Shown: piece by piece, positions 40,767 to 54,573 of the stretch | How the letters are laid out: each line of letters starts with the position of its first letter | Numbering within the stretch: position 1 is the first letter of the stretch | Source: an uncultured delta proteobacterium | Lineage (GTDB): Bacteria > Desulfobacterota > Syntrophobacteria > BM002 | DNA length: 64,000 bases | Assembly: GCA_963712115.1 (NCBI GenBank) | Contig: CAVQGX010000026.1 | Coordinates: 64,001 to 128,000 of the forward strand | Direction of reading: 5' to 3' | Made by a program: the position numbers and the translations under genes | Notes under the pieces: model-generated | The model's database searches: none | Told to the model about the DNA's origin: nothing | The model's input: the letters and a program-made list of their open reading frames with translations, nothing else

Positions 40767-40785
40767 TAAACCTGGTCTCCTGCAC

Positions 40786-41892
40786 CTACACATATTTTAG
40801 TTCGTAATCTCTGCTTCCAAGTCCCAACTCTTCTGCATAACCTAATTGGATGGACCAATCAATGTGAGGGTAGACGCCCCGAAACTTGTCTTCACCAGGC
40901 CCTCTATTGCTTTCAAGGCAGCAGTCAGGTAGGGCTGGCTGCGCATTGACTAGATCCACTGAAGCCTGGTCGATGGCCACCGGATCCCTGCTTGCCAGAA
41001 TGCCCAAATCCCTCACTAAAGGAACGTCGCTAAAGCCATAACAGTCGCACTGCGGAGTTACCCGGCTGACGAAACTGAGGTAGAAGGCACGGTCTTCCTT
41101 GTTTTTGAGGACTCCCACCGTGTATTCCACCATTTTCTTCTGAAAACGGGCCGTGTCGCTATCCCAGGGGATGGAGACAGCCGCTTCCGGGCACACTGCT
41201 ATGCACTCGCCGCAGCCAATACATTTTTCGGCATCCTTCTTGGCCTTTTTCTTGAGCAGTTCAATGGCCTCAACAGGACAGTGGGCTACGCACTCGCCAC
41301 AGCCGATGCACTTTTTGGCGTCGAACTCGGGCGAGATCTCACAATGCTGGGCAAGTTTTCCTTTTCTGGAGGCACAGCCCATGCCCAGATTCTTAATAGT
41401 GCCGCCAAACCCTGCAAGTTCGTGTCCCTTGAAGTGGGCGGCGCTAATGAGAGCGTCCGCCTGTACCACGTCCCCACCAAGGTAAACTTCATCATAGATG
41501 GGAAGGTTCACTGGTACAGCCACCTCAGCGTTACCTCTGAGGCCGTCAGCTATGGTGAGGGGCGCACCAGCCACAGCATAAGCAAACCCATTCTGAATGG
41601 CTGTGGTGAGATGATCCACGCTGTTGGTTCTGGTACCCACATAGAGCGTGTTAGTATCGGTTAAAAAGGGCTTGCCCCCCAGTTTCTGAACTCGATTGAC
41701 CAAATGACGCAAGTGCGTGGGCGGAATGTAAGCCGTGTTCCCCTTCTCTCCGAAGTGCAGCTTGATGGCAATCAGATGCCTTGCCTTGATGATGTCATCG
41801 AAACCAGCAGCATCGAGCAAACGATCCAGCTTGACGTAAAGGTTTTCTTGCAAGCTAGCCCTCAAATCCATGGCAAATACTTCAATCGGCAT
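40786..41892 (-). CDS. DUF362 domain protein with 2x[4Fe-4S] ferredoxin insert
   Basis: IKLHFGEKGN, HFKGHELAGFGGTIKNLGMGC, two CxxCxxCxxxCP motifs and DPVAIDQA. Confidence 0.9.
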   Translation of the reverse strand: MPIEVFAMDLRASLQENLYVKLDRLLDAAGFDDIIKARHLIAIKLHFGEKGNTAYIPPTHLRHLVNRVQKLGGKPFLTDTNTLYVGTRTNSVDHLTTAIQNGFAYAVAGAPLTIADGLRGNAEVAVPVNLPIYDEVYLGGDVVQADALISAAHFKGHELAGFGGTIKNLGMGCASRKGKLAQHCEISPEFDAKKCIGCGECVAHCPVEAIELLKKKAKKDAEKCIGCGECIAVCPEAAVSIPWDSDTARFQKKMVEYTVGVLKNKEDRAFYLSFVSRVTPQCDCYGFSDVPLVRDLGILASRDPVAIDQASVDLVNAQPALPDCCLESNRGPGEDKFRGVYPHIDWSIQLGYAEELGLGSRDYELKYV

Positions 41893-41918
41893 GGGTTCCT
41901 CCCTTAAGTCTACAATCC

Positions 41919-41964
41919 AAAAGATAAGGGCGCCCAACCAACAAAAGACAGGGAGGGCGCCCTT
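41919..41964 (-). terminator. Probable terminator or stabilising hairpin after the SBP gene
   Basis: AAGGGCGCCC...GGGCGCCCTT 10-bp stem followed by ATCTTTT. Confidence 0.55.
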
Positions 41965-42019: not shown

Positions 42020-43216
42020 CTAATAAACCAGATTCCAACCGCCCTTCCAAATCATTACCATAACCATAGAATTAGTGCCCAATCCGTTGTGATCTTTTGG
42101 GCTGATGTTGTAGATGCCGCTGATTCCCACATAATTTTTGGTCTGTTCAATGGCATCACGTAACATAACGTTATTGGTTCCCACCTTTTTCATGGCATTG
42201 GCTACGATGTAAATAGCGTCCCAGGCGTAGCCCGAGTGGGTGTTGATGGGAAACTGTTTGTCGAAGTCGTACACATCGTTGTAGAGACGGACGAATTCAC
42301 TAATAACTGCTTTCTGAGGATCTGAATCCGAGAGTTGATTGTATGCCATCAACTTAGTGGATGGCATGACATTCCCTTCTGAGGCGCTCCCCGCCAGTTC
42401 TACGTATTTGGGATCCGGCAAGCCGTGACACTGGATCAGGGGTAGTTTAATCGCCAGCTGTTTGACATTTTTGGCAACTATCGATCCAGCCGGGCCAATG
42501 GTCCAACAGATGATTACCTGGGCGTTGGTGTTCTTGATTTTGGTAAGCTGAGTGGTCATGTCAGCATCCCTGACCCCAAAGGACTCATCAGCTACAACCT
42601 CTAGACCGTAGTCGGGAGCTAATTTGGCAAGCCAGCCCTTCCCGTCACGGCCGAAGCCGTCAGATGCAGTAATAAGGGCAATATTCTTGACTTTCTTGGC
42701 CCTCAGGTACTGGTAGACTTTCTTTACCGCTACGGAACTTCGCTGGGGCGACTTAAAGATCCACTTGGCAGTGCCGAAATTCTTGCCGCCGTGCATACCC
42801 TCCATAATAACCGGATCACCACCCACTGTCATTACGGTAGGGATCTGCTGTTCTTCGAGGTATTTTTTTACCGCCATGCCCGTGCCCGTTCGGGTGGGGC
42901 CGATTAGGGCCACGACCTTTTCTTGCTCAACTAAACGTTTGGCGACCATGAGTGCCCTGGTAGGGTCGCCCTCGGTGTCCCCAACAACCAGTGCTAGGGG
43001 GCGGCCGTTTATACCACCTTCTTTGTTTATTTTCTCAACCACCATCTCAGCCACGAGCTTGGTGGGAGTGCCAATAAAAGCCGCAGGACCGGAGAGATCG
43101 AAAAAGGCGCCTATCTTGATCGGTTCTTCAGCGGTGGCCTCATTCACAGAATATCCAAATGAAAAGGCAACCGTGATGGCAAAGAGCAAAACCATAATCT
43201 TTCTCGTCATGTTCAT
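42020..43216 (-). CDS. Liv/HAAT-family ABC substrate-binding protein
   Basis: Signal peptide, PIKIGAFFDLSGPAA, INKEGGINGRP and DMTTQLTKIK. Confidence 0.92.
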   Translation of the reverse strand: MNMTRKIMVLLFAITVAFSFGYSVNEATAEEPIKIGAFFDLSGPAAFIGTPTKLVAEMVVEKINKEGGINGRPLALVVGDTEGDPTRALMVAKRLVEQEKVVALIGPTRTGTGMAVKKYLEEQQIPTVMTVGGDPVIMEGMHGGKNFGTAKWIFKSPQRSSVAVKKVYQYLRAKKVKNIALITASDGFGRDGKGWLAKLAPDYGLEVVADESFGVRDADMTTQLTKIKNTNAQVIICWTIGPAGSIVAKNVKQLAIKLPLIQCHGLPDPKYVELAGSASEGNVMPSTKLMAYNQLSDSDPQKAVISEFVRLYNDVYDFDKQFPINTHSGYAWDAIYIVANAMKKVGTNNVMLRDAIEQTKNYVGISGIYNISPKDHNGLGTNSMVMVMIWKGGWNLVY

Positions 43217-43718: not shown

Positions 43719-45008
43719 TTAACCGCGATGATCAAATACCCTCATGCTTTTGCGCTCAGTTCGTGGCAGACTGCCGTGGTCAATGACTTCCACTTCAGCA
43801 CTCACCAAAATATGCTTGCGAATGTCCTGGGAAATACGACTGGCTATTGCTTCGTTATCTTGAGGTTTATAGCGTGGCCGCCGCTCTACTTTGAGGATCA
43901 TGTAATCGCGGCCGTCTTCTCTTCGTTCGAGATGTACCTGGTACTCGCTGCCTATTTCCGCAATCTGTGACAAGAGGTGATCAATTTGTCCGGGGTAAAT
44001 ATTCACCGCCCTGACAATGAACATGTCGTCCGAGCGCCCAAGGATACGGTCGTGCATGGGCAACGGATTACCGCAAGAGCATGGTTGGGGGATAATCCGC
44101 GTCAGGTCTCGAGTTCTATAACGGATTAGTGGAGCTCCTTCTTTGCGCAGGGTGGTGACTACCATTTCGCCCAATTCTCCCGGTTCAGCCGGCTCGAGGG
44201 TTTCAGGATCTATGACTTCCAATATGTAGTAGTCAGCCCAGTAATGGATGCCTTGGTGTTTACCGCAGTCCAGACCGGTTCCAGGACCGTATAATTCAGT
44301 AAGGCCGGGTATATCAAACACGTGTTCAACTCCGAGGAGTTCCTTGATGCGTCGGTCCATAGATTCGCTGTGCCGCTCTGCACCCAGAATGACTTTCCTC
44401 AGGGTTATTTGCTCCCGAAGGTTCCTCTTTTGCACCTCTTCTCCCATTAGAAGTGCCATGGAAGCGGTGGCGCAGAAGACTGTACTTTGCATGTCCACCA
44501 ACATCTCACAATGCATCTCCGTATTTCCAGGGCCTACAGGCACCGCCATGGCACCTAGTCTCTCGCAGCCCAATTGAAATCCGACACCAGCAGTCCACAG
44601 GCCATAGCCCACGGCTATTTGGACCCGGTCCTCTGCCGAAAGGCCCGCCATCTCATAGCAGCGGGCGAACATGTTGGCCCAGTCGTCAATGTCTTTCTGG
44701 GTATAGCAAAGGACTTTGCGTTTTCCTGTGGTGCCCGATGAGGCGTGAATGCGGACAATTCGGTCGAAGGGCACGGCCCTTAAGGGAAAAGGATAGCCCT
44801 CCCGTAAGTCATCGGCCGTGGTAAAGGGCAGTCTAATCAAATCATCCAGCGAGTTGATCTCCTCTGGAGTGATTCCAGCCTTCTGCAACCGCTGGCGATA
44901 AAAGGGTGAGTTCTCATATGCATGGCGTACTGTCCATTTCAGCCCCTCTAGTTGTAAACTCTTCAATTCCTCTAAGGTCGCAATGTTCGGCATGAACGTA
45001 CGAGTCAT
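43719..45008 (-). CDS. Phenylacetate-CoA ligase family (PaaK-like) aryl-CoA ligase
   Basis: RIHASSGTTGK P-loop, YGLWTAG, GLTELYGPG, RYRTRD and GRSDDM. Confidence 0.92.
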   Translation of the reverse strand: MTRTFMPNIATLEELKSLQLEGLKWTVRHAYENSPFYRQRLQKAGITPEEINSLDDLIRLPFTTADDLREGYPFPLRAVPFDRIVRIHASSGTTGKRKVLCYTQKDIDDWANMFARCYEMAGLSAEDRVQIAVGYGLWTAGVGFQLGCERLGAMAVPVGPGNTEMHCEMLVDMQSTVFCATASMALLMGEEVQKRNLREQITLRKVILGAERHSESMDRRIKELLGVEHVFDIPGLTELYGPGTGLDCGKHQGIHYWADYYILEVIDPETLEPAEPGELGEMVVTTLRKEGAPLIRYRTRDLTRIIPQPCSCGNPLPMHDRILGRSDDMFIVRAVNIYPGQIDHLLSQIAEIGSEYQVHLERREDGRDYMILKVERRPRYKPQDNEAIASRISQDIRKHILVSAEVEVIDHGSLPRTERKSMRVFDHRG

Positions 45009-45045
45009 AGCAACTTCTCCAAGTCGAACAAGATACCAGTTTTGA

Positions 45046-45395
45046 TATGAGATGTGGGATGTGCGATAAGATTGATCTTTCTGGAGAGCCAAGATCCTAA
45101 ATTTCACATCTCAGATCCCATATCTTACATACAGTAGTCAGTAGTCAGTAGTCAGAATTCAGTAGTCATTTGTTGATTCGAGAATTCGTTAATTAGTCAA
45201 TTAGCAAATTCGTCGATTCGTTAAAACATAGAAATCGTTTTGAGCTTTTAACGTTAAACTTCTTATTTCTCGCCGCGTCTCCATGTCGCCGTATCTCCCC
45301 GTCGCGCTGAATTTGCCAACTGTTCGCTACTGGCTGTATTTCCCTATGCCCCATACCCTATGCTCTATGCCCCCCAATCCGAAATCTGCAATCTC
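45046..45395. repeat. Multi-module short-tandem-repeat spacer
   Basis: TGAGATG/TCACATC, CAGTAGT, TTCGTTGA-like, TCGCCGCG and CTATGCC arrays stacked in one intergenic region. Confidence 0.7.
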
Positions 45396-45397
45396 AT

Positions 45398-46687
45398 CTA
45401 CTCCTCAAACACGATTTGCCCTTTCTCGCTGGATAACGTACTCTCCTCAACCAGCTTAACCTTAATGCCCAGGCCGATAGCCCTTCTTAGGTGAGCTCTA
45501 ATACTGTCTGCCAGAGCGTGAGTCCGGTACCAGTCCGAGACAAAGTTGGTGGGATAGGCGACCTGCACTTCCAACTGGTCATTCAGACCGTCACGCTGGC
45601 GAATAATTAGTCGATAGTTTTCTACTTCGGGTGCTGCCTCCCCAAGCAAACGTGCCACCTGTTCTGGATAAATAGCTATACCGCGTATCATGAGCAAATC
45701 GTCTGAGCGACTCAAGGGCGCTGCCATCCGCATACTGGTGCGACCGCACGGACAAGGGTTGCAATCCAAAGTGGTAATATCACCTGTTCTGAAACGGATA
45801 AAAGGATAGCCTTCGTTGGTGAGAGTGGTGATGACCAGTTCACCTTTTTGTCCTAGAGTCAAAGGCTGGCACGAATGGGGATCAACGACCTCTGGATAAA
45901 AGTGGTCCTCCGCCAGGTGGAGTCCTGATTTTTCCTGACATTCCGCTGAAACTCCCGGTTCAACCATTTCGTTGACACCGTAGACTGAATAGGCCTGAAT
46001 TCGAAGACGGTCTTCCAGAGTCCGACGGACGTGGGGCGACATGGCTTCGGGACCTAATAGTCCAATTTTGAGGTGTATCTGATTGATATCAATGTTTTGA
46101 CGTTCTCTGGTCTCGGCAATGTGCATGGCAAAAGAAGGCGAGGTAGCGAGCACCGTACTACGGAAATCCTGCATGATTTGCAGTTGAATCGTGGCGGAAG
46201 CTATTGAGGTGGGGGCTACGGTGGCGCCCACAAGTTCCGCGGCCTGGTTAAAGGTGAAGGCACCGGTGAAAAGCCCATAGTTGAAAGCAACCTGAATAAT
46301 ATCTTTAATAGAGATTCCCATACCGGTCATATGTCGCGCCATCAGTTCCAACCAATTTTGGACATCTTTCTGGGTATAGCCGATCACAATGGGTTGCCCC
46401 TTTGGGGCTGCAGAAAACTTGAGGCGGACAATGGATTTCAACGGCACAGAAAACAACCCATAAGGGTAATGATCTGCCAGGTCTGCCGCTGTGGTACAAG
46501 GAATTCTCCTGAGATCTTCTAAGGAACTGATGTCTTCGGGCAGTAGACCTAGTTCCTCGAACCGACGTCGATAGAAATCTACTTTTGCATAGGCACGGTT
46601 GAGGGTCACCTGTAAACGTTCAAGCTGCAGCTCGGCCAGCTCTTCCCGCGGGAGAGTTTCAATGTTTTCGTTCCAGAAGGCTACCAT
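45398..46687 (-). CDS. PaaK-like protein with degenerate ATP-binding loop
   Basis: Full-length PaaK fold (YPYGLF, FNYGLFTGA, RFRTGDIT, RSDDLLMIRG), but KFSAAPKGQP replaces HASSGTTGK. Confidence 0.85.
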   Translation of the reverse strand: MVAFWNENIETLPREELAELQLERLQVTLNRAYAKVDFYRRRFEELGLLPEDISSLEDLRRIPCTTAADLADHYPYGLFSVPLKSIVRLKFSAAPKGQPIVIGYTQKDVQNWLELMARHMTGMGISIKDIIQVAFNYGLFTGAFTFNQAAELVGATVAPTSIASATIQLQIMQDFRSTVLATSPSFAMHIAETRERQNIDINQIHLKIGLLGPEAMSPHVRRTLEDRLRIQAYSVYGVNEMVEPGVSAECQEKSGLHLAEDHFYPEVVDPHSCQPLTLGQKGELVITTLTNEGYPFIRFRTGDITTLDCNPCPCGRTSMRMAAPLSRSDDLLMIRGIAIYPEQVARLLGEAAPEVENYRLIIRQRDGLNDQLEVQVAYPTNFVSDWYRTHALADSIRAHLRRAIGLGIKVKLVEESTLSSEKGQIVFEE

Positions 46688-46724
46688 TCCTCTTTCGCCC
46701 TCCTCTCGTCTCAAAATGTCACAA

Positions 46725-46915: not shown

Positions 46916-47653
46916 CTACCTTTCCCACTTCTCCTTGTAATCCTTGCCCAAAAAGGCACGGCGCACCTCATCATTTGCCAGAAGCTCGTCAGGTGTTCCT
47001 TCGAGAACAATGCGGCCAGCCTCCAATACGTAGGCCCGATCGCAGATTTCCAAGGCAGCCTGAGCGTTCTGTTCAACTAAAAGTATGGTAGTGCCGTTGT
47101 CCCGAAGCTTGCGGGTTACCTGCAGAATCTCCTGTGCCACGAGAGGTGCCAGTCCTAACGATGGTTCGTCGAGGAGAAGCATTCTGGGCCTGGCCATGAG
47201 AGCCCGTCCAATGGACAGCATCTGTTGCTCACCACCACTCAAAGTGCCAGCCCTCTGCTGGGTTCGCTCTTCCAGGATAGGGAAGAGAGTGTAAATTTCC
47301 TGACGCTGAGATTTGGCCATCCTTTTTTGCTCTTTTTTAGGGAGACTGTAGGATCCCAATTCCAGATTCTCAGTGACTGTCATTGAGTTAAAGATCTGCC
47401 TCTGTTCCGGTACTTGCAGGAGACCAAGGCGAACCATCTTATCCGGTGCCAGTTTGTGAATCTCCTGACGCTCAAAGAAAATACTGCCAGAACTGGCTGG
47501 GTGCAGCCCGCTAATCACGTTGAGCAGGGTGCTCTTTCCCGCACCGTTGCCCCCAATAAGAGAGACTATCTCTCCTTTGTTGACATGGAAGGTCACCCTG
47601 CGGAGCACCTGAATATTTCCGTAATATGCCGAGACGTTCTTTACGAGAAGCAT
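46916..47653 (-). CDS. LivF-like ABC ATP-binding protein
   Basis: GGNGAGKST, LSGGEQQML, LDEPSLGLAP and VEQNA. Confidence 0.95.
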   Translation of the reverse strand: MLLVKNVSAYYGNIQVLRRVTFHVNKGEIVSLIGGNGAGKSTLLNVISGLHPASSGSIFFERQEIHKLAPDKMVRLGLLQVPEQRQIFNSMTVTENLELGSYSLPKKEQKRMAKSQRQEIYTLFPILEERTQQRAGTLSGGEQQMLSIGRALMARPRMLLLDEPSLGLAPLVAQEILQVTRKLRDNGTTILLVEQNAQAALEICDRAYVLEAGRIVLEGTPDELLANDEVRRAFLGKDYKEKWER

Positions 47654-47898: not shown

Positions 47899-48681
47899 CT
47901 ACGTGGAGCCGCCACCTAAATACGCCCGGATTACCTCCGGATCCCTTTGGATCTCCTCGGGTGAACCTTCAGCGATCTTCAACCCGTGATGTAGGACAAT
48001 GACCCTATGGGCTATGCTCATAACCAAATTCATGTCATGTTCAACCAGTAGAATGGTTAGGCCGTTTTGCCGCAATCCCTTGATAATGTCACCCATCTCC
48101 TCCGTTTCCCGGATGTTGAGACCCGCAGCAGGTTCGTCCAAAAGCAGTAAACAGGGGTCAGACACGACGGAACGGGCAATTTCCAAACATCTTTGTTCTT
48201 TCAGGCTAATGCTGTCCGCCTTTCGGTAAGCTAAATGGCCGATGCCGAACTTCTCCAGTGTATCTCCGGCCTGACCTATTGCCTTTTTCTCCTCTTGCCG
48301 TTCTGCGGGCAAGTGTACCATACCTTTGAGAAAACCGCTGCGCAACCGGTGGTGCAGCCCCAGTAAGACGTTCTCCATTACGGTCATATGCTGAAAGATC
48401 TGGACTGACTGAAAAGTTCTTGCCACTCTTTTTTTGGCAATCTGGTAAGGCTTTAGCCCTGAAATGCTTTCTCCATCGAGCAAAATCTCACCACTGGTTG
48501 GAGGATAGACCCCAGAGATAAGGTTGAGTATTGTAGTTTTCCCCGCGCCGTTTGGGCCAATAAGAGATACGATTTCACCTGAGTCCAGACGGAAGGAAAC
48601 GTCCGCAATCGCCAGCAACCCATCGAACTGCTTTTTAACTTCTTCGAGGTGTAATAGGGTGCCGTTAGTTTTCATTGCCAT
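47899..48681 (-). CDS. LivG-like ABC ATP-binding protein
   Basis: GPNGAGKTT, ARTFQ, LDEPAAGLN, VEHDM and VIRAYLG. Confidence 0.95.
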   Translation of the reverse strand: MAMKTNGTLLHLEEVKKQFDGLLAIADVSFRLDSGEIVSLIGPNGAGKTTILNLISGVYPPTSGEILLDGESISGLKPYQIAKKRVARTFQSVQIFQHMTVMENVLLGLHHRLRSGFLKGMVHLPAERQEEKKAIGQAGDTLEKFGIGHLAYRKADSISLKEQRCLEIARSVVSDPCLLLLDEPAAGLNIRETEEMGDIIKGLRQNGLTILLVEHDMNLVMSIAHRVIVLHHGLKIAEGSPEEIQRDPEVIRAYLGGGST

Positions 48682-48905: not shown

Positions 48906-49871
48906 CTATTCTGATAACAAAATTTTCTTTGACCGCTTCTGAGACCATAGCTTTACCAGTCCCGGCAGCAAGCCTTCCGGAAAGAACACCAGAACTCCCA
49001 TCAGGATTACCCCATAAAGCAGGAGGGCGTAATCACGCATGGCATGGAGCACTTCAGGCAAAGCCGTGAGCAATGCAGCGCCCAGTAAACCTCCCCAGAG
49101 ATTACCTATACCCCCCACCACCACCATAGTGACAACCTGAATGGAATAAAAGATGTCAAAAGTCTTGGGACTGATAAATGAGAGGTAGTGGGCATAAAGG
49201 CTCCCCGCCAGAGAGGCATAGGCTGCGCTGATAGCAAAGATGACAATCTTGTAGCGTTCGGTGTTGACTCCCAGGGCATTGGCTACAAGTTCATTTTCAT
49301 GAATAGCTCGAAGTGCCCGGCCCACGCGGGAATCCACCAGGTTAAGAGAAACAAAGAAAACTAGCAGGAAAAAGGACCATAGTAGCCAGTAATAGTGGAG
49401 GTCACCCTGGATGGTAAAAGACCCCAGGTGGAGAGGAGGGATTCCAGAGAAACCAGATGGCCCACCAGTCCAATATTCCATCTGGACCATAAGAATGTAG
49501 AGGATGATGTTAAAGCCCAAGGTTGCCATGACCAGGTAGTGGCCCGCAAGCCTAAGAGTTGGTATACCCAACACATACGCGACCGCAGCAGTAAAGACCA
49601 TTACCGCCACTAAAGTCGGCCAGGGCGGTGTATTATACATGGCGGTAAAGATGGCCGAGAAGTACGCCCCCATCCCGAAAAAGGCCGCATGGCCCAGTGA
49701 GATTTGACCAGCAAACCCGATCAGCAGGTTCAAGCCAAGGACCACCAGGCCGTTTATCGCAATAATATTCAGGACCAGCAGGTAGTAGCCTCCTTTGACT
49801 ACGAGGGGAAGCAGGGCCACTAGCCCTGTCAGTCCAAAGAAGTAAATCCATTTTTTGTGGGTCTTAGACAT
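48906..49871 (-). CDS. LivM-like ABC permease
   Basis: GLNLLIGFAGQISLGHAAFFG, SRVGRALRAI and VVVGGIG. Confidence 0.93.
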   Translation of the reverse strand: MSKTHKKWIYFFGLTGLVALLPLVVKGGYYLLVLNIIAINGLVVLGLNLLIGFAGQISLGHAAFFGMGAYFSAIFTAMYNTPPWPTLVAVMVFTAAVAYVLGIPTLRLAGHYLVMATLGFNIILYILMVQMEYWTGGPSGFSGIPPLHLGSFTIQGDLHYYWLLWSFFLLVFFVSLNLVDSRVGRALRAIHENELVANALGVNTERYKIVIFAISAAYASLAGSLYAHYLSFISPKTFDIFYSIQVVTMVVVGGIGNLWGGLLGAALLTALPEVLHAMRDYALLLYGVILMGVLVFFPEGLLPGLVKLWSQKRSKKILLSE

Positions 49872-49935
49872 AACAAAAGAGTCCGTGGCAATTAAGGCTA
49901 ACTAGATGGCACAAGGCGCAGGGCGCAAGGCAGCA

Positions 49936-50075
49936 TTAGGTCATTATGCTCCGCGCTGTCGCGCTTCGCTGTCACTAGGCTCCGCCGTCATTAGGCCTTA
50001 CGGCCGTCATTATGTTGTTACAATAAATGACCATGAATGACAGCGTAGCGTATTGACGCGAAAGCAAATGACTCT
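49936..50075 (+). repeat. Family R2 element; near-identical inverted copy of 54738..54876
   Basis: About 140 bp with about 4 differences by eye; flanking heptamer modules are also shared. Confidence 0.85.
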
Positions 50076-50122
50076 CCGCTGGCCGCTGATTTAACCGCTA
50101 TGCCCTATGCTCTTTGCTCTTT

Positions 50123-51004
50123 CTATACTCGCTTGATCTCTTCCTTGCCAAACAGCCCTGTGGGTTTGATAAAGAGCACCAGCAACAGGATAAGAAAAGC
50201 AAAGGCGTCCTTGTAAGCAGATGAGACAAAGCCAGCACCAAAGGTTTCCATGGCCCCGAGAAGAAGTCCACCCAGTACTGCGCCCTTCATGCTGCCGTAA
50301 CCACCCAATATTGCAGCAGCAAAGCCTTTTAGTGCCAGCATGACCCCAGCGCTGTATGACATAGTGGTAATTGGGGTAATAATGATACCGGCCACCGCTC
50401 CGATCCCGCCACTGAGAACGAAAGAAAGCAATGTCATGCGGTATACGCCTATACCAATAAGGGCAGCCCCTCGCCGATTCTCAGCCACTGCTCTCATGGC
50501 TTTGCCTACCATGGTGCGACTGAAAAAAAAGCCGAGCAAAACAACTACCAGCAGGGTGATTCCCAGGATCCAAAGAGTTTGGGGTAGGATAGCAGCACTG
50601 CCTAGGATCAATGGTTCATCACCAGAAAAAGGCGGCAAAGTCCGCGGGGTTTTACCCCATATATGCATGGCCGTTTCCCGCATGGTGATAGAAGCGCCCA
50701 CGGTGATCATCACCAGAATCAGAATGCTGTCCGAGCGAGCCCTACGAATAGGTCCAATCTCCATTAACCAACCCACTACCATTACAGCTAGCACCGCCAG
50801 AGGAAAGGCTATGAGCAGCGGAAGTCCAGCAACCTGGGTGAGGCTGATCATGGTCATGGCGCCGAGCATGACAAACTCTCCCTGGGCGAAGTTGACAATG
50901 CCTGTGGCGTTATGAATGATCCCGAAACCCAGGGCAATGAGGGCATAAATACTGCCACTAGTGAGTCCTGATACAAAGAATTGAGGGAGCTGAGACCAGA
51001 TCAT
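50123..51004 (-). CDS. LivH-like ABC permease
   Basis: GSIYALIALGF..VNFAQGE, GKAMRAVAEN and KGFAAAILGG. Confidence 0.93.
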   Translation of the reverse strand: MIWSQLPQFFVSGLTSGSIYALIALGFGIIHNATGIVNFAQGEFVMLGAMTMISLTQVAGLPLLIAFPLAVLAVMVVGWLMEIGPIRRARSDSILILVMITVGASITMRETAMHIWGKTPRTLPPFSGDEPLILGSAAILPQTLWILGITLLVVVLLGFFFSRTMVGKAMRAVAENRRGAALIGIGVYRMTLLSFVLSGGIGAVAGIIITPITTMSYSAGVMLALKGFAAAILGGYGSMKGAVLGGLLLGAMETFGAGFVSSAYKDAFAFLILLLVLFIKPTGLFGKEEIKRV

Positions 51005-51281
51005 AAGCACAAAGCTGCTAGTTTGGTTGTTTTTTGATCAGTCTATTTTTTCTCAACTTCGAATCACCAAAATTCAAAACAGAACGTTTTTGCCACTGGC
51101 AAAAGGGAATGATTTTTGATGTGAAATCAAGTTTCGGTCATTTGAACTTAGGATTTTGGATTTGTTTGGATATTCGAATTTCGATATTCGGATTTGATGA
51201 GTTTACTCATCGCTGGCCTCAATGGGGGCCAGAATAGAGATTTTGTAATAGGTCAGCAAATCTCTATGAACAATCCGGCCC

Positions 51282-51320
51282 AAAAACAGAAAAGCCGTGA
51301 GCTTTAAAGCCGCCCACGGC
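51282..51320 (-). terminator. Attenuator terminator upstream of the Liv/PaaK operon
   Basis: GCCGTGGGC-GGCTTTAAA-GCTCACGGC followed by TTTTCTGTTTTT. Confidence 0.85.
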
Positions 51321-51344
51321 GATAATCTTGTGACCGGAATCAGT

Positions 51345-51413
51345 TCATGTGGGCCTGTGGGCGGACCTATCCTTGGAACTCCACCACCAAGGCCATGAAC
51401 GATTCAGGTGCAT
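51345..51413 (-). CDS. Trp-rich attenuator leader peptide MHLNRSWPWWWSSKDRSAHRPT
   Basis: AAGAGGT RBS; 22 codons with TGG at positions 7, 9, 10 and 11; the 3' part is complementary to the terminator 5' arm. Confidence 0.85.
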   Translation of the reverse strand: MHLNRSWPWWWSSKDRSAHRPT

Positions 51414-51503
51414 CCGCTAACCTCTTGGAAACAGGAACCTAAGTCAATTTCGCTACATAGCAGACCCGCGGTTGGAGTGTCAAGGGAAATTCAGCGGAAC
51501 GAA

Positions 51504-51665
51504 GCATAGGGCATAGGGCATAGGGCATAGAGCATAGAGTAAGTAGCCAGAAGTCAGAATCCAGGATTCAGGAGAAAAGCAATCAAGATGGAATTCCCTG
51601 CAACTTCTGGCATTTTCGCCGTGTCTCCGTCTCGCCGTTTCACCGTGTCGCCCTGCAGTGCCTAG
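51504..51665 (+). repeat. Family R1 copy 4
   Basis: GCATAGG array, CAGAATCCAGGATTCAGGAGAAAAGCAATCAA core, TCGCCGTG array and TGCCTAG. Confidence 0.8.
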
Positions 51666-51699
51666 TTGAAATGGATGCCTACTCCAAAGTGCCCAGCAG

Positions 51700-53565
51700 T
51701 TACTTCTCCGCGCCACATAACACCTTGTGCGGTTCCTCATTAACCGCCAAGCTCAGAACCTGCTCACCCTCTCGAAACATGAGCCGTTTGGCAACCATAT
51801 GAGAAATAAAATTCTGCAGCTTATCGAAAGACAAGCTGGGAAATTCATGGAGGATCTGGCCCTGAGTTCGACGTGTTTCACAAAAGCGATAAATACCCCG
51901 CGAGGATCCCTTGAGTCGAAAGGTCTCCATCTCGTAATCTTTGGTTCGCCGACGGATTAAGAGAAAATCTCCTCCGTCACGGTAGCCAAGCAAAGGGGCA
52001 GGGAAATGGTCTTTTCGAAGTGAGTGGTATCGCTCTTGCCAGCTGGCAAGCTCCCTAGCTACCGGCCGCCAGAGTTTCTTTTGTTTGGTGCGATCGCCTC
52101 TGTATGTTTTTATCATTAGGCAGAGGGACTCTGCGAGTGAGTGCGGGAGCAACTTCTTATAGTGTGGGTGATTGGCCACACTGCGGATGCCAAATTGTTC
52201 CGGGTGAAGGTGCACCGGGCTATTTTGCCCCAGCCAGAAAAGGACTTTGCGAAGAGGTTGATAGGGTAGGACAAACTTGAGATTGTTGAGGGTTTCCTCA
52301 ACATCATTGCCATCGCTTGTTGGAAAGCCCAGGATCAGGTTGGATGAATGCTGGATGCCCAGTTCCTCGCAGTGTTTCATCATCTCGATGTTTTGGATGG
52401 CCGTGGTCCCTTTGTTTATTTTATCAAGGAGTCTGGTGCTCAGGGCCTCAACTCCAATCTGGACCTGATTGACCCCGGCTTTCCGCATCTGAATGAGATC
52501 GCCACGTGAGACAGATGACCTTAATTCAGCAAAGATCTCGAAGCTCCGATCTATATCAGTGATAGATTTGAAGAGTCCTTTGAGCTTGCGGCTGTCCAGA
52601 ATGTTGTCAGTAAAGGAGAATTTCAGACTAGAGTGTTTGCTGGCCAACTCTTCCATTTCCCGCGCTACTTGAATGGGTTCTTTGCTCCTGTACCCTCGCC
52701 ACTGCAAATTAAGATTGCAGAATTTGCAGGCACGATCGACCGAGCCAGACCTTACTCTTTGCCACCAGCATCCTCGAGAGGTTTCCACCGGTAGATTGGG
52801 TATTAGGTTGGACAAACGAGATTGACGACTTAATTGCTCAAAATAGTCACTGTAGTCTGGCACAGGAAGTTCTTTCAGGTTCAATAGCTGTTTCAGCCCT
52901 CCCCCATTGATATTACCCTGGTTATCCCGCCAAAGCAGGCCGGCAGGGTCATCACCTTTGAAGTCGCCATTCTTGATTCGGTTAATCAAAGTTAACAGCG
53001 GCAGTTCACCCTCTCCGCTCGCCACGAAGTCGATCTCAGGTGAGTTGGCAAGGAGGGAGTAACCCAGTTCGCCTGCGCAACTTGATCCGCCAACCACTAT
53101 GGGGCAAGGGGGATGATGCCTGCGGATCTCCCTGATCATATAGAGAGATGAGGTCAATTGGGAAAGACAGATTGAAAAACCGATGAGATCATAAGAAGAC
53201 CAAGCCAGAGTGAGATGTTTCCTTTGGTGCAAGCGGTGAATCTGTCTGGAGATATTTTCAAGATCTGGAGAATCCCCTTTTGCCTTGGCACTATACTCCT
53301 TGGTAACTAGATCAGTTATTTCACGTCTTCCTGTCGGGTTGAACAGATAAGCGTAAACGGATTCTGCTACCCAGGTTCGCTCGGCAATATCATTGTAGGC
53401 TTTGAGCCCCAATAAATTGCCCACCTCGAGGTAAGGATGGTAACAGTCAATCTTTACGTCTGCCGCTTTGTTTTCGATGAAACTCTTTAGGGTGCCTAGT
53501 TGTATGGAAGGTCGGTTGGCCAAGGGCCAAGGCATGGATATGAGAGCGAGGCGGAATGCCGCCAT
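51700..53565 (-). CDS. B12-dependent radical SAM C-methyltransferase of the 'RiPP maturation radical SAM protein 1' type
   Basis: ISMPW..RPSIQLGTLK, VVGGSSC, SGEGE, ETSRGCWW..CKFCNLN, FTDNIL and QIGVEALS. Confidence 0.85.
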   Translation of the reverse strand: MAAFRLALISMPWPLANRPSIQLGTLKSFIENKAADVKIDCYHPYLEVGNLLGLKAYNDIAERTWVAESVYAYLFNPTGRREITDLVTKEYSAKAKGDSPDLENISRQIHRLHQRKHLTLAWSSYDLIGFSICLSQLTSSLYMIREIRRHHPPCPIVVGGSSCAGELGYSLLANSPEIDFVASGEGELPLLTLINRIKNGDFKGDDPAGLLWRDNQGNINGGGLKQLLNLKELPVPDYSDYFEQLSRQSRLSNLIPNLPVETSRGCWWQRVRSGSVDRACKFCNLNLQWRGYRSKEPIQVAREMEELASKHSSLKFSFTDNILDSRKLKGLFKSITDIDRSFEIFAELRSSVSRGDLIQMRKAGVNQVQIGVEALSTRLLDKINKGTTAIQNIEMMKHCEELGIQHSSNLILGFPTSDGNDVEETLNNLKFVLPYQPLRKVLFWLGQNSPVHLHPEQFGIRSVANHPHYKKLLPHSLAESLCLMIKTYRGDRTKQKKLWRPVARELASWQERYHSLRKDHFPAPLLGYRDGGDFLLIRRRTKDYEMETFRLKGSSRGIYRFCETRRTQGQILHEFPSLSFDKLQNFISHMVAKRLMFREGEQVLSLAVNEEPHKVLCGAEK

Positions 53566-53903
53566 CAGTGAGGTCTCTTCATCCAAACAAGAGCTAACTC
53601 CGCAGAGGGATTGTATTTACAAAAACGCATTTCGGAGGTCTTATCCACTGATTGCTTCAGGGATATAATCCGGTCGAACTCACGGTTGACCACGACCTGA
53701 CAAAATCCCATTTCCTCCTCTGCAGAGAGAAACAAAAGATCGCTGGGCAAGACGGACCTTGCCATTAAAGCCATATCGTCATCGAGGAGATCACTGCTGC
53801 AGATCCTGTAGCAGGCTCCACAAGCGCAACTATAGACATCGTCGAAGTCAAGGGGAACAGGGTGTTTTCTCTCACAAAAGGGGCAAACGATATTGAGGTG
53901 CAT
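53565..53903 (-). CDS. Small Cys-rich (Zn-ribbon-like) hypothetical protein
   Basis: CPFC...CACGAC..C; GGAG RBS; TGATG overlap with the radical SAM gene. Confidence 0.7.
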   Translation of the reverse strand: MHLNIVCPFCERKHPVPLDFDDVYSCACGACYRICSSDLLDDDMALMARSVLPSDLLFLSAEEEMGFCQVVVNREFDRIISLKQSVDKTSEMRFCKYNPSAELALVWMKRPH

Positions 53904-54084
53904 GGGGAAATCTCCGTTCTAGTTTGTCGCTGACACCAGTCTGGCCAGGGTGCAAGCCTAGTTCAATCGAGACAAGGAAAGAAACCACAGTAAACTCAGA
54001 GGGGTATCTATATCATAGATGCTAGAAATGTGGCACCATTTATTTTGCTCACTCTCTGACATTTGTGTTCTCCGTGCTATGAGT

Positions 54085-54573
54085 TTATCCTGCTGAGCCT
54101 TGCCGGCCTCGGACTGCTGATAGCACGCGGATTGTATCTCCAGGTTTGACTTTGCCGCCACGGAGGACTCGCGCAAAGATTCCTTCTCTGGGCATTACAC
54201 AGTCACCTACCTGATGGTAGATGGCGCACCGGTCATGGCACTCTTTGCCAATCTGGGTGATTTCAAGCTCTGCTTCACTCCCCACTGCTAGCCGGGTGCC
54301 CAACGCCAGTTGCCAAATCTCGAGTCCACTGGTGGTGATGTTTTCGGCAAAATCACCGGGGGCTACATCTATACCTTTGTCGCGAATCTTGGTGATGCTC
54401 TCCATAGCAAGGAGGCTTACCTGCCGATGCCAGTCACCTGCATGAGCATCGCCCTCAAACCCTTTGTCTTTTATTAGCTCGCACTCCGAAAGATTACTTT
54501 TTTTCTGTCCCTTGCGACGACTTGTAGAGACTGCTACGATTCGGCCTTGCAGGGCAGGAGATAAGTCTTTCAT
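54085..54573 (-). CDS. MOSC domain protein
   Basis: GDAHAGDWHRQVSLL, PGDFAENIT and QIGKECH..C......GDCVMPREG. Confidence 0.92.
   Translation of the reverse strand: MKDLSPALQGRIVAVSTSRRKGQKKSNLSECELIKDKGFEGDAHAGDWHRQVSLLAMESITKIRDKGIDVAPGDFAENITTSGLEIWQLALGTRLAVGSEAELEITQIGKECHDRCAIYHQVGDCVMPREGIFARVLRGGKVKPGDTIRVLSAVRGRQGSAG

What the first reader, a model, noticed from the sequence alone, without database searches (positions are those of the whole stretch)
51282..51430. Complete classical tryptophan attenuator in a deltaproteobacterium, upstream of non-trp genes
Seen on the minus strand: RBS AAGAGGT; leader MHLNRSWPWWWSSKDRSAHRPT; protector pairing (TTCATG/CATGAA, GGCCT/AGGCC, GGTGGA/TCCGCC) over the Trp codons; antiterminator CCGCCCAC-A-GGC complementary to the terminator arm GCC-GTGGGCGG; terminator GCCGTGGGC/GCTCACGGC plus U-tract. 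Known: this is the ribosome-stalling logic of trpL. Its use for a Liv-type transporter and CoA ligases is, to my knowledge, not described.
Basis: partly seen in the sequence, partly recalled or inferred. Interest (0 to 1): 0.78.

Follow-up and report, generated by a model that had tools for sequence, protein, structure and literature searches.

The report
Tryptophan attenuator on aryl-acid salvage operon
A small tryptophan-rich leader gene with competing RNA hairpins sits in front of a transporter and CoA-ligase operon, which suggests that these genes are switched on when tryptophan runs short and help to remake it from imported indole acids.

Summary
On the minus strand, 51483-51282 holds a promoter-like site, a Shine-Dalgarno site, a 22-codon ORF with 4 Trp in 5 codons, a protector hairpin over the Trp codons, an antiterminator and a terminator with a U tract.

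It is conserved. The leader precedes livH in 5 species of the genus. Homologous leaders precede iorA-iorB-livH... in a sister genus and in 6 of 6 genomes of another family. Three relatives of the genus type and one of the other family's type turned up in metagenomes.

The antiterminator shows compensatory changes. Only the Trp frame keeps a start, an SD site and a stop before the terminator in 11 of 11 leaders.

The genome's own trpE has a related leader. A paralogous SBP-liv-paaK-iorAB operon carries a Tyr/Phe leader.

Best reading: a classical Trp-starvation attenuator on an uptake and CoA-activation operon for an indole-type aryl acid. The product would feed IOR-dependent Trp synthesis. This function is inferred, not shown.

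The mechanism is known. I found no paper on this target operon. The scan noted a similar iorAB case in another genome.

The parts
51454..51483 (-). Promoter-like site: -35 TTGACA (51483-51478), 18-nt spacer, -10 TATGTA (51459-51454)
   Evidence: Read. Both hexamer regions are conserved in the 5 genus copies while the DNA further upstream diverges. They are also present in G018. The scanner did not list it, because the last base of the -10 is not T. Inferred, not shown.
51420..51426 (-). Shine-Dalgarno AAGAGGT, 6 nt before the ATG
   Evidence: Predicted pairing to the anti-SD is -6.5 kcal/mol. An SD-like site of -3.9 to -7.4 precedes a Trp-frame start in 11 of 11 leaders.
51345..51413 (-). Leader ORF, 22 codons plus TGA: MHLNRSWPWWWSSKDRSAHRPT. 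Trp codons at 51395-51393 and 51389-51381.
   Evidence: The run stays WxWWW(W) in relatives despite a 3-nt TGG indel, a Pro-to-Phe change and an ATG-to-GTG start change.
51337..51405 (-). Protector (1:2) hairpin. Its 5' half covers the Trp codons and its 3' half holds region 2.
   Evidence: MFE and centroid structure. With no ribosome, region 3 stays free of upstream pairing in 8 of 11 leaders.
51353..51368 (-). Region 2, the 5' strand of the antiterminator: AGG-T-CCGCCCAC-A-GGC
   Evidence: with a ribosome at the last Trp codon, 9 of 9 nt of the terminator's 5' arm pair here. Covariation.
51307..51320 (-). Region 3: GCC-GTGGGCGG-CTT. It is shared by the antiterminator (with region 2) and the terminator (with region 4).
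51282..51320 (-). Intrinsic terminator: 9-bp stem (one G-U), 9-nt loop, then TTTTCTGTTTTT (51293-51282)
   Evidence: The stem columns are invariant apart from one G-U/G-C position in 11 leaders.
51005..51281 (-). 277-nt spacer between the U tract and the livH ATG (51004). It holds a weak A/T-rich hairpin (51104-51088) and a 14-nt tandem repeat (51165-51195).
   Evidence: The spacer is far shorter in G006 and G016, where the 14-codon leader ORF ends 159 nt before the livH region, and its sequence differs among relatives. An internal promoter in G000 is not excluded.
50123..51010 (-). livH-type permease (probable start ATG 51004)
   Evidence: Pfam PF02653, E 1.3e-37. Orthologues in W-leader operons of other families are 56-61% identical, against 54% for the paralogue in the Tyr/Phe-leader operon of the same genome.
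48906..49871 (-). livM-type permease
   Evidence: Pfam PF02653, E 2.1e-45.
47899..48681 (-). livG-type ATPase
   Evidence: Pfam PF00005 and PF12399.
46916..47653 (-). livF-type ATPase
   Evidence: Pfam PF00005.
45398..46714 (-). PaaK-like aryl-acid CoA ligase 1, the extra copy. Its nearest relative in my small set is the ligase of the Tyr/Phe-leader operon (43%).
   Evidence: NCBIfam TIGR02155: 387 bits, below the 646 cut-off. Identities.
43719..45107 (-). PaaK-like aryl-acid CoA ligase 2, orthologue of the single ligase in the W-leader operons of family f3 (71-74%)
   Evidence: TIGR02155: 411 bits, below the cut-off. Nearest solved structures are phenylacetate-CoA ligases 4r1l and 2y27. Identities.
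42020..43216 (-). Liv-type periplasmic binding protein of the W-leader operon
   Evidence: Pfam PF13458, E 8.5e-54. It is 63-64% identical to the binding proteins of f3 W-leader operons and 37-39% to those of Tyr-leader operons. The aromatic-acid binder CouP (4jb0) is among the best solved relatives, E 4e-29.

Best explanation
This is a ribosome-mediated, leader-peptide transcription attenuator that senses charged tRNA-Trp.

How it most likely works:
- Transcription starts at the conserved promoter-like site. A ribosome then translates the 22-codon leader.
- When Trp is plentiful, the ribosome runs to the stop codon and covers or frees region 2 too late. Region 3 pairs with region 4, and RNA polymerase terminates at the U tract (51293-51282).
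- When Trp-tRNA is scarce, the ribosome stalls on the WPWWW codons and masks region 1. Region 2 (CCGCCCAC-A-GGC) pairs with region 3 (GCC-GTGGGCGG). The terminator cannot form, and transcription continues into livH-livM-livG-livF, two PaaK-like CoA ligases and a Liv-type binding protein.

Inferred function of the operon: it takes up an indole-type aryl acid (most likely indole-3-acetate) and activates it to the CoA ester. Indolepyruvate:ferredoxin oxidoreductase then carboxylates the ester reductively to indolepyruvate, which is transaminated to Trp. That makes it a salvage branch of Trp supply.

In relatives the matching iorAB genes lie directly behind the leader. This genus has lost them from the operon, and here the only IorA that passes the family cut-off belongs to a paralogous operon under a Tyr/Phe leader.

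What is shown: the sequence anatomy, the predicted alternative folds, conservation, covariation and operon orthology. What is inferred: the promoter, Trp-dependent read-through, the substrate and the direction of the pathway.

The confidence of 0.75 is for the core claim, a Trp-sensing attenuator that controls this operon. I put the salvage function at about 0.5.
For: Anatomy and stability:
- All elements are present.
- The MFE structure is protector plus terminator, z -3.15.

The switch:
- I masked a ribosome at the last Trp codon and cut the transcript before the 3' arm. The terminator's 5' arm then pairs upstream at 6-9 of 9 nt in 11 of 11 leaders, and 0-10 of 200 shuffles do as well.
- With the ribosome at the stop codon, the terminator forms in 11 of 11.

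Covariation of the antiterminator on 11 leaders:
- 85.5% of cells are paired, against 36-48% when the partner is slid.
- 4 of 15 pairs carry changes on both sides (9 cells). 0 of 500 shuffles reach the observed pairing or the double-change cell count.

Reading frame:
- The Trp frame has an SD site, a start, and a stop 22-51 nt before the terminator in 11 of 11 leaders.
- The Val/Leu frame has no SD site at its ATG and runs through the terminator in 2 of 11.

Conservation:
- 5 genus genomes carry the leader before livH.
- G018 carries it before iorA-iorB-livH-livM.
- 6 of 6 genomes of family f3 carry it before iorA. The full order iorA-iorB-livH-livMG-livF-paaK-SBP was read in the 2 f3 genomes I fetched.
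- Of the 80 fetched loci of a loose metagenome pattern search, 4 are true leaders. Two precede livH and one precedes iorA. The fourth locus ends before any downstream gene but has the same upstream radical-SAM gene.

Link to Trp and aromatic amino acids:
- The model built from this leader also finds the trpE leaders of the family, including this genome's (NWYWWWY).
- A paralogous SBP-livHMGF-paaK-iorAB operon in the same genome has a YYYFFYYF leader.
- The binding protein, ligase 2 and LivH are closer to their counterparts in W-leader operons of another family (56-74%) than to the Tyr/Phe-operon paralogues in the same genome (35-54%). W-operon IorA proteins group the same way (54-68% against 40-41%).
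- The nearest solved ligases are phenylacetate-CoA ligases. The ferulate-binding protein CouP is among the top solved relatives of the binding protein (passages of PMC3610893).
- Passages of PMC6737245 and PMC4162585 describe assimilation of indoleacetate and phenylacetate in methanogens by a ligase plus IOR.

Direction of the pathway: starvation-induced expression fits an anabolic role, not a catabolic one (inference).
Against: - No expression data show Trp-dependent read-through.
- At full equilibrium, with region 4 present, the antiterminator is the MFE in only 6 of 11 leaders when the ribosome sits at the last Trp codon. The switch therefore has to be kinetic, as at trpL.
- With no ribosome, 3 of 11 leaders (G018, G027, G038) already fold the antiterminator.
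- The terminator and protector show no compensatory changes.
- The leader is patchy. In the same radical-SAM to livH gap it is absent in 7 genus genomes and in one named MAG. Two more genomes are cut by contig ends.
- G020 has a different 5' leader before iorA.
- 2 of 29 other loci with a W-type IorA pass my Trp-uORF filter, and both look spurious.
- In G000 a 277-nt spacer separates the terminator from livH and could hold a second promoter.
- No W-type iorAB exists in this genus, so the salvage route here needs the Tyr/Phe-operon IOR.
- Both ligases and the transporter parts score below NCBIfam equivalog cut-offs.
- The substrate is unknown. No aminotransferase was sought.
Confidence: 0.75

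Rival explanations
1. The attenuator is the same Trp-sensing device, but the operon simply imports tryptophan or aromatic amino acids when Trp is short. The ligases serve another purpose.
For: - Liv-type ABC systems are amino-acid importers by family (Pfam).
- Starvation-induced uptake of the amino acid itself is the simplest logic.
- This genus has no iorAB in the operon.
Against: - The ligase and, in relatives, iorAB are fixed members of the same leader-controlled operon across two families.
- AMP-forming aryl-acid ligases have no role in amino-acid import.
- The carboxylate binder CouP is among the best solved relatives of the binding protein (E 4e-29), ahead of the Agrobacterium amino-acid binders 3ip5 and 3ipc (about 1e-14). 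Three entries named Leu/Ile/Val- or branched-chain-binding also score 1e-26 to 1e-27, so this point is weak.
Confidence: 0.17
2. The leader is read in the +2 frame, where TGG runs become GTG and CTG (MALVVEFQG here). It would then sense valine or leucine for a branched-chain amino-acid transporter.
For: - The +2 frame of any Trp run is Val/Leu-rich.
- It has an ATG in the 5 genus leaders.
- The transporter is 'Liv-type'.
Against: - That ATG has no SD site (pairing +0.1 to +0.4 kcal/mol).
- In f3 the frame has no ATG.
- Its stop wanders from 17 to 143 nt after the run and lies beyond the terminator in G018 and G032.
- The related trpE leaders share the architecture.
- The partner enzymes are aryl-specific families.
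Confidence: 0.03
3. The small ORF encodes a Trp-rich precursor peptide for the neighbouring B12/radical-SAM RiPP methyltransferase (51700-53586). The hairpins are then just that gene cluster's terminator.
For: - The upstream gene matches TIGR03975, a RiPP maturation radical-SAM C-methyltransferase, at 391.7 bits against a cut-off of 281.85.
- The ORF lies directly downstream on the same strand.
Against: - Seven genus genomes keep the radical-SAM gene next to livH without the ORF.
- None of the 5 f3 loci examined has an ORF resembling the window's radical-SAM protein in the up to 1.5 kb upstream that I could see. Only ORF ends were read, with no family search, and one locus had too little upstream DNA.
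- G006 and G016 truncate the peptide to 14 residues while keeping all RNA pairings.
- The peptide's conserved C-terminus (RSAH) is the antiterminator read as codons.
Confidence: 0.02
4. The Trp run and the hairpins coincide by chance. The element is an ordinary terminator or untranslated leader without amino-acid sensing.
For: - Runs of at least 4 TGG in 5 codons occur at about 36 places in the genome.
- The leader is dispensable in close relatives.
Against: - Runs of 3 to 5 Trp codons persist across two families, through indels and flanking substitutions.
- The start and SD site are conserved.
- The antiterminator covaries.
- The fold is exceptional against shuffles.
Confidence: 0.03

Closest known systems
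trpL leader-peptide attenuator of the E. coli trp operon (Rfam Trp_leader RF00513; model recalled from textbook knowledge)
   Same: - A short translated ORF with clustered Trp codons.
- Four segments that form 1:2 and 3:4, or 2:3.
- An intrinsic terminator with a U tract.
- Read-through on Trp-tRNA shortage.
   Different: - No sequence-family membership: there is no Rfam match even at E up to 10.
- Four Trp codons in five, rather than two adjacent ones.
- The Trp codons themselves pair with region 2.
- The controlled genes are a transporter and CoA ligases (plus iorAB in relatives), not trpEDCBA.
The trpE leader of the same genome (contig C7:30244-30336, minus) and of its family
   Same: - A WxWWW run.
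- A CCAC-containing region 2.
- The same GCCGTGGG...CCCACGGC terminator.
- It is found by the covariance model built from this leader at 23-28 bits.
   Different: - A longer peptide (30 aa).
- A different 5' part, and only weak overall similarity.
- It controls trpE-G-D-C-F-B-A.
Tyr/Phe-leader attenuator before SBP-livHMGF-paaK-iorAB in the same genome (contig C43), and Tyr leaders before Liv-type operons in Syntrophales-labelled MAGs
   Same: The same kind of operon (Liv-type ABC transporter, PaaK-like ligase, IOR) under a leader-peptide attenuator with a GTCCAC region 2 and a similar terminator.
   Different: - The regulatory codons are Tyr/Phe (YYYFFYYF, YYYYYYY).
- The proteins are paralogues at 35-54% identity.
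- The gene order starts with the binding protein.
Aryl-acid route to aromatic amino acids in methanogens: ligase plus indolepyruvate oxidoreductase (Porat et al., cited in passages of PMC4162585; Tersteegen et al., cited in passages of PMC6737245)
   Same: The enzyme set, a PaaK-type ligase and IOR, with the proposed direction aryl acetate to aryl pyruvate to amino acid.
   Different: - That route is archaeal and was tested biochemically and genetically there.
- Here it is bacterial, carries a dedicated ABC importer, and is inferred only from regulation and gene content.
- I saw only citing passages, not the original papers.
CouPSTU aromatic-acid ABC transporter of Rhodopseudomonas palustris (PMC3610893)
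   Same: A Liv-type binding protein and ABC system that carries aromatic carboxylates. CouP is among the best solved relatives of the operon's binding protein.
   Different: - CouP serves catabolism of lignin-derived acids.
- In the abstract and passages I read, I saw no mention of attenuator control.
- Similarity is modest (E 4e-29).

Membership tests
Leader-peptide (ribosome-mediated) transcription attenuator, trpL type | A short ORF with a ribosome-binding site and a start codon upstream of the structural genes | tested here: met
   SD AAGAGGT, ATG 51413, 22 codons. An SD site and a start are present in 11 of 11 homologous leaders.
Leader-peptide (ribosome-mediated) transcription attenuator, trpL type | Clustered codons for the sensed amino acid within the leader ORF | tested here: met
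   WPWWW here. Runs of 3 to 5 Trp codons occur in all 12 genomes and in the 4 metagenome copies.
Leader-peptide (ribosome-mediated) transcription attenuator, trpL type | An intrinsic terminator (G+C-rich hairpin plus U tract) between the leader ORF and the first structural gene | tested here: met
   51320-51282. The stem is conserved in 11 of 11 leaders.
Leader-peptide (ribosome-mediated) transcription attenuator, trpL type | An antiterminator that shares a strand with the terminator and is favoured when the regulatory codons are occupied by a stalled ribosome | tested here: met
   11 of 11 leaders in the truncated-transcript fold. Covariation. At full equilibrium only 6 of 11.
Leader-peptide (ribosome-mediated) transcription attenuator, trpL type | An anti-antiterminator (1:2) that sequesters region 2 when the leader is not stalled | tested here: met
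   Met in this window. Across relatives it holds in 8 of 11. In 3 the ribosome at the stop codon would have to do this job.
Leader-peptide (ribosome-mediated) transcription attenuator, trpL type | Read-through rises when the charged tRNA is scarce | not testable with these tools
   Only contigs from RNA libraries were available. They cannot show 3' ends or transcript levels.
Rfam Trp_leader (RF00513) | A match to the family's covariance model | tested here: not met
   No match at E up to 10 in 49000-54000, and none at E up to 0.1 in three related loci.
LIV-I branched-chain amino-acid transporter (LivJ/K-HMGF) | Equivalog-level match of the binding protein, implying Leu/Ile/Val specificity | tested here: not met
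   The window's binding protein scores 57.6 bits on NF011933 against a cut-off of 477. LivH of the orthologous G018 operon scores 135.5 bits on NF008011 against a cut-off of 379. The window's own LivH was not scanned against NCBIfam. The fold families PF02653 and PF13458 are met. So it is Liv-type by fold, not a LIV-I orthologue.
Phenylacetate-CoA ligase PaaK (TIGR02155) | A score above the equivalog cut-off | tested here: not met
   387.2 and 411.3 bits against a cut-off of 646.3. The proteins are PaaK-like, substrate unknown. The nearest solved structures are PaaK proteins.
IOR-dependent aryl-acid salvage of aromatic amino acids | Indolepyruvate:ferredoxin oxidoreductase alpha and beta subunits linked to the ligase | tested here: inconclusive
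   Not present in this operon. The one IorA over the cut-off in the genome lies in the Tyr/Phe-leader operon (790 bits). In G018 and in family f3, iorAB follows the homologous leader directly.
IOR-dependent aryl-acid salvage of aromatic amino acids | Conversion of indoleacetate to tryptophan | not testable with these tools
   This needs biochemistry or isotope labelling.

The most novel reading that the evidence does not exclude
In this class of anaerobic Desulfobacterota, paralogous operons (ABC importer, aryl-acid CoA ligase, IOR) are each wired to a leader peptide for a different aromatic amino acid: Trp here, Tyr/Phe on contig C43. That would make them dedicated, starvation-induced pathways that build Trp, Tyr and Phe by reductive carboxylation of scavenged indoleacetate, hydroxyphenylacetate and phenylacetate. 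It would be regulatory evidence that bacteria use, as a regulated branch of amino-acid supply, a route described so far in methanogens. The leader type could then be used to read the substrate specificity of hundreds of unassigned Liv/PaaK/IOR clusters.
Probability: 0.45. Interest if true: 0.7.

Novelty: new variant of a known kind. Interest (0 to 1): 0.55.

Why it matters
Clusters of IOR, PaaK-like ligase and Liv-type transporter genes are common in anaerobes. They are usually annotated as branched-chain amino-acid transport or as aromatic amino-acid fermentation.

An attenuator that opens on Trp starvation makes sense only for genes that raise Trp supply. The leader therefore acts as a built-in functional label. 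It argues for an anabolic, salvage direction and for an indole-type substrate. It also separates the Trp operon from its Tyr/Phe paralogue.

The idea is directly testable by binding assays, ligase assays, labelling and reporter fusions. It bears on how sediment and syntrophic bacteria economise on the costliest amino acid.

The finding also adds a well-supported Trp leader family outside the gamma-proteobacterial Rfam model.

Tried and rejected
- Rfam: no family matched.
- Consensus promoter/terminator scan: it missed both the terminator (9-nt loop) and the promoter-like site, and reported only a weak A/T hairpin in the spacer.
- RNAalifold on the 5 genus copies: 39 pairs and no compensatory change, because the copies are too similar.
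- Equilibrium folding with the whole terminator present: ambiguous, 6 of 11. I replaced it with folds of the transcript cut before region 4.
- LivH relatives in genome contigs: of the 80 loci kept (the best of 593 confirmed), none carried the Trp leader by my uORF scan or by the model. Four carried Tyr leaders.
- W-type IorA orthologues in other families: 2 of 29 loci passed a Trp-uORF filter, and both are long TTG-start ORFs that I judge spurious. 16 of 29 have some terminator-like hairpin. I did not follow this up, beyond noting a WW leader in G075 and G076.
- Metagenome pattern search: 120 stretches matched, 80 were fetched, and only 4 were true leaders. The pattern was too loose.
- RNA-library contigs from 4 studies cover the leader. 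One contig of a relative joins the leader to livH. Contigs cannot show strand, ends or level, DNA carry-over is possible, and stretches without cover mean nothing.
- A Pfam call with a wrong coordinate failed and was not repeated.
- Structure prediction, complex prediction and the large protein searches were not used. They would not bear on the attenuator.
Full report
OBSERVATION

Read on the minus strand, the region holds the following, in order.
- A promoter-like pair: TTGACA 51483-51478, an 18-nt spacer, TATGTA 51459-51454.
- AAGAGGT at 51426-51420.
- An ATG at 51413 that opens a 22-codon ORF, MHLNRSWPWWWSSKDRSAHRPT, ending at TGA 51347-51345.
- A terminator: GCCGTGGGC, a 9-nt loop, GCTCACGGC (51320-51294), then TTTTCTGTTTTT (51293-51282).

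The minimum-free-energy fold of 51430-51275 is a long hairpin (51405-51337) followed by the terminator. The 5' half of that hairpin is the Trp-codon stretch. The fold has -62.1 kcal/mol, against -49.9 +/- 3.9 for shuffles (z -3.15), and 1 of 200 shuffles folds as well. The stretch is single-copy in its genome. Rfam has no match for it.

SURROUNDINGS

Upstream lies a B12/radical-SAM protein of the RiPP C-methyltransferase family, 51700-53586 (TIGR03975, 391.7 bits against a cut-off of 281.85). Downstream, after a 277-nt spacer, come these genes:
- livH (probable ATG at 51004), livM, livG and livF.
- Two PaaK-like ligases.
- A Liv-type binding protein (43216-42020).
- Then a DUF362 Fe-S protein and a dihydrolipoyl-dehydrogenase-like gene.

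The ligases (387 and 411 bits against 646) and the binding protein (57.6 against 477) score below NCBI's equivalog cut-offs. The names describe folds, not substrates.

CONSERVATION WITHIN THE GENUS

BLAST over 61 related genomes finds the whole element in four other species of the genus, at 97, 90, 90 and 78% identity. In each it lies between the radical-SAM gene and livH.

The peptides are:
- MHLNRSWPWWWSSKDRSAHTPT
- MRLNRSWPWWWGNS
- MRLNRSWPWWWWSY
- (GTG start) TSNHAWFWWWWILRERSAHSPT

The differences include a 3-nt indel that is exactly one TGG, a Pro-to-Phe change inside the run, and an ATG-to-GTG start with the SD site kept. These are the changes expected of a translated Trp run.

The element is not universal.
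- Of the 16 family genomes with a LivH orthologue of at least 75% identity, 5 have the leader.
- 7 have the same radical-SAM to livH gap without it.
- 2 are cut by contig ends.
- 2, from other genera, have iorB in front of livH.
- A named MAG with an 86%-identical LivH also lacks the leader.

CONSERVATION BEYOND THE GENUS

I built a covariance model from the five copies and searched the family (22 genomes) and the class (122 genomes).

In G018, a sister genus, it scores 62.8 bits. The promoter-like site and SD region are nearly the same, and the peptide is MNRGLRWFMWWQISPEEFAHSL. The next genes there are:
- iorA (TIGR03336, 648 bits against a cut-off of 651).
- iorB, livH and the start of livM.

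The joined contig then ends.

In family f3, 6 of 6 genomes carry a homologous leader directly before iorA:
- ...VFWWCWWWQFARGVRSAHR
- ...NWWRWWWSGPGVRSAHR
- ...FWWCWWWIYGEGVRSAHR
- ...FWWCWWWCDIKGVRTAHQ
- ...FWWCWWWRDIPGVRSAHQ
- ...RFWWWRIIRGVRSAHQ

. In the two f3 genomes where I fetched the operon, the order is iorA, iorB, livH, livM-livG fusion, livF, one PaaK-like ligase, binding protein.

A loose pattern search of metagenome contigs matched 120 stretches, of which 80 were fetched. Four were true leaders. Three are of the genus type, with radical SAM upstream of the leader: two of these precede livH and one locus ends first. One is of the f3 type and precedes iorA. In one of them the first Trp has become Cys, but the run has four consecutive Trp codons.

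THE OPERON IS ONE ORTHOLOGOUS UNIT

Pairwise identities:

| Protein in the window | To W-leader operons of f3 | To Tyr/Phe-operon paralogues |
|---|---|---|
| Binding protein | 63-64% | 37-39% |
| Ligase 2 | 71-74% | 35% |
| LivH | 56-61% | 54% |

The W-operon IorA proteins are 54-68% identical to one another and 40-41% to the other IorA of this genome.

A class-wide search with the G018 IorA is clearly bimodal. One group is at 55% identity or more, the other at about 40%. The genus of the window has only the 40% type.

The simplest history is an ancestral leader-iorAB-liv-paaK-SBP operon. The genus then lost iorAB, gained a second ligase, and in some species later lost the leader too. This is an inference.

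THE ORGANISM USES ATTENUATION FOR ALL AROMATIC PATHWAYS

Weak hits of the model (23-28 bits) are the trpE leaders of the family, in 7 genomes. This genome's own is MKKNLNRQKNLVNWYWWWYVCVGVYPLPGE before trpE-G-D-C-F-B-A. It shares the CCAC segment and the GCCGTGGG...CCCACGGC terminator.

A scan of the genome also found:
- A FFCYYYY leader before an aro operon.
- A KYYFYYC leader before a DAHP-synthase-like gene.
- A FFFFCFF leader before a 625-residue ORF that I did not identify.

(gene names come from my reading of the N-termini, not from a family search).

A leader MAFSARQTVLQRYYYFFYYFSGETSVH also lies before a second operon, SBP-livH-livM-livG-livF-paaK-iorA-iorB on contig C43. Tyr leaders precede similar operons in G018 and in 4 of the 80 LivH-related loci from named MAGs.

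So two paralogous operons of the same design carry leaders for different aromatic amino acids.

DOES THE SWITCH WORK ON PAPER?

I folded 11 leaders under ribosome masks.

- Ribosome at the stop codon: the terminator forms in 11 of 11.
- Ribosome at the last Trp codon, whole terminator available: the antiterminator is the MFE in 6 of 11. Equilibrium alone does not decide.
- Same ribosome position, transcript cut before region 4, which is the situation when the choice is made: the terminator's 5' arm pairs with region 2 at 6-9 of 9 nt in 11 of 11. Between 0 and 10 of 200 shuffles of the upstream part do as well.
- No ribosome: region 3 is free in 8 of 11. In G018, G027 and G038 the antiterminator already forms, so termination there would depend on the ribosome covering region 2 at the stop codon.

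COVARIATION

On the 11-leader alignment, the 15-pair antiterminator gives these counts:
- 85.5% of cells paired, against 36-48% with the partner slid by 1-3 columns.
- 4 pairs with changes on both sides (9 cells).
- 0 of 500 shuffles reach the observed pairing or the double-change cell count.
- 2 of 500 shuffles reach the covariation score.

The structure was derived from these sequences and the sequences are related, so these figures overstate the case somewhat.

The terminator is almost invariant and therefore uninformative.

WHICH FRAME IS READ?

A TGG run read two bases later is Val/Leu-rich by construction, and the transporter is 'Liv-type', so I tested that rival.
- The Trp frame has a start with SD pairing of -3.9 to -7.4 kcal/mol, and a stop before the terminator, in 11 of 11 leaders.
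- The Val/Leu frame's ATG has no SD site. f3 has no ATG in that frame at all. Its stop lies anywhere from 17 to 143 nt after the run, beyond the terminator in 2 of 11.

The RiPP-precursor rival fails on context.
- The radical-SAM gene stays in place without the ORF in 7 genomes.
- I saw no ORF resembling it upstream of the f3 leaders. This rests on ORF ends only, in up to 1.5 kb, at 5 loci, one of which had too little upstream DNA.
- Two species truncate the peptide to 14 residues while keeping the RNA pairings.

FUNCTION (INFERENCE)

A device that opens on Trp shortage should control genes that raise Trp supply.
- The partner enzymes are aryl-specific families. The nearest solved ligases are phenylacetate-CoA ligases.
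- CouP is among the best solved relatives of the binding protein. It binds ferulate, coumarate and 4-hydroxyphenylpyruvate (passages of PMC3610893).
- Passages I read state that methanogens assimilate indoleacetate and phenylacetate through a phenylacetyl-CoA ligase and IOR by reductive carboxylation (PMC6737245). They also state that aryl acids feed a second aromatic amino-acid pathway in M. maripaludis (PMC4162585). I did not read the original papers.

The operon therefore most likely imports and activates an indole acid for IOR-dependent Trp synthesis. Plain Trp import remains a real alternative.

In this genus the route would need the IOR of the Tyr/Phe operon. That is a weakness.

EXPRESSION

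Contigs from four metatranscriptome studies cover the leader. One contig, from a relative with a shorter spacer, runs from about 51450 to inside livH. This is compatible with transcription and read-through. It does not show either, because contigs carry no strand, ends or level, and DNA may be present in the libraries.

LITERATURE AND EARLIER NOTES

- None of the 20 listed papers that hold two of 'indolepyruvate', 'attenuator' and 'leader peptide' contains 'indolepyruvate' (226 papers matched, 20 were listed).
- One paper holds 'indolepyruvate', 'transcription attenuation' and 'tryptophan'. It is a genome report on an unrelated bacterium, seen only in the listing.
- A search on delta-proteobacteria and attenuators gave nothing relevant.
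- Naville and Gautheret (PMC2965389, passages) report many attenuators before ABC transporters. The word 'tryptophan' does not occur in the main text. I did not open its supplementary tables, which may list such cases.
- The scan itself noted a Trp attenuator before an iorAB-TRAP operon in another genome, with the same salvage idea (e1-5008278). I reached the iorAB link from my own searches, but the idea is not unique to this report.

VERDICT

The attenuator is real, conserved and mechanistically classical. What is new is its family, which has no Rfam model, and its target operon, which it labels as part of Trp supply. I rate it a new variant of a known kind, with interest 0.55.

Noticed in passing
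Genome contigs outside the window: C7:30244-30336(-), C7:22208-22288(-), C33:109808-109906(-), C17:46421-46510(+), C43 about 40845-40925(+): The genome carries leader-peptide attenuators with Trp, Tyr or Phe runs before four targets: trpE-A, an aro operon, a DAHP-synthase-like gene, and a 625-aa ORF that I did not identify. A fifth precedes a second SBP-livHMGF-paaK-iorAB operon (YYYFFYYF leader)..
   Followed up: partly
window 51504-51537: A tandem heptamer, GCATAGG x 4.9, lies just upstream of the promoter-like site. In RNA-library contigs this stretch has 10-30 times the depth of its flanks, with many loose ends. It is therefore a repeat shared with other places or organisms. A similar motif lies before iorA on contig C43.
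   Followed up: no
L125-L127, L133, L135, L137, L044 (just upstream of livH in relatives): Runs of a 9-nt unit (CACTTTAGN, CATTTTAGN) sit directly before the livH start in at least 7 related genomes, with or without the Trp leader. They are absent in the window, which has other A/T-rich repeats there. Their function is unknown.
   Followed up: no
window 51700-53586 (-), and ORFs 53565-53903 and 54085-54573: This is a B12/radical-SAM enzyme of the RiPP C-methyltransferase family (TIGR03975, over the cut-off). I did not look for its precursor peptide. The gene keeps its place next to the liv or ior operon across the family.
   Followed up: no
L175:2527-2883 (G020): Between the radical-SAM gene and iorA, this relative has a 356-nt leader that is not homologous to the Trp leader. 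It has a promoter-like site and a hairpin plus T run just before iorA. It has no Trp-rich uORF and no Rfam match. It may be a different sensor on the same operon.
   Followed up: partly
L179, L184 (G075, G076; family f6): Before a W-type iorA there is a leader beginning MTGPWWRLPAHGP. Its two TGG codons lie inside the 5' arm of a terminator-like hairpin (-25 kcal/mol), and the frame runs on into iorA. This is a different architecture for what may be the same signal.
   Followed up: no
L015, L025 (G021); L166, L171 (G108, G109): Other aromatic leaders in the class:
- WRAYYYC, before a shikimate-kinase-like gene.
- SWCWCC and VWWWQ, before trpB2-like genes.

Gene names come from reading the N-termini only.
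   Followed up: no
L034 (G018:C1): The 'single-contig' genome G018 has 100-N spacers about every 4.8 kb, so it is a set of joined contigs. Gene order across those spacers means nothing.
   Followed up: yes
window 39369-41937 (-): A DUF362 protein with two 4Fe-4S motifs and an overlapping dihydrolipoyl-dehydrogenase-like gene follow the binding protein on the same strand. They are absent from the f3 operons. Whether they belong to the transcription unit is open.
   Followed up: no
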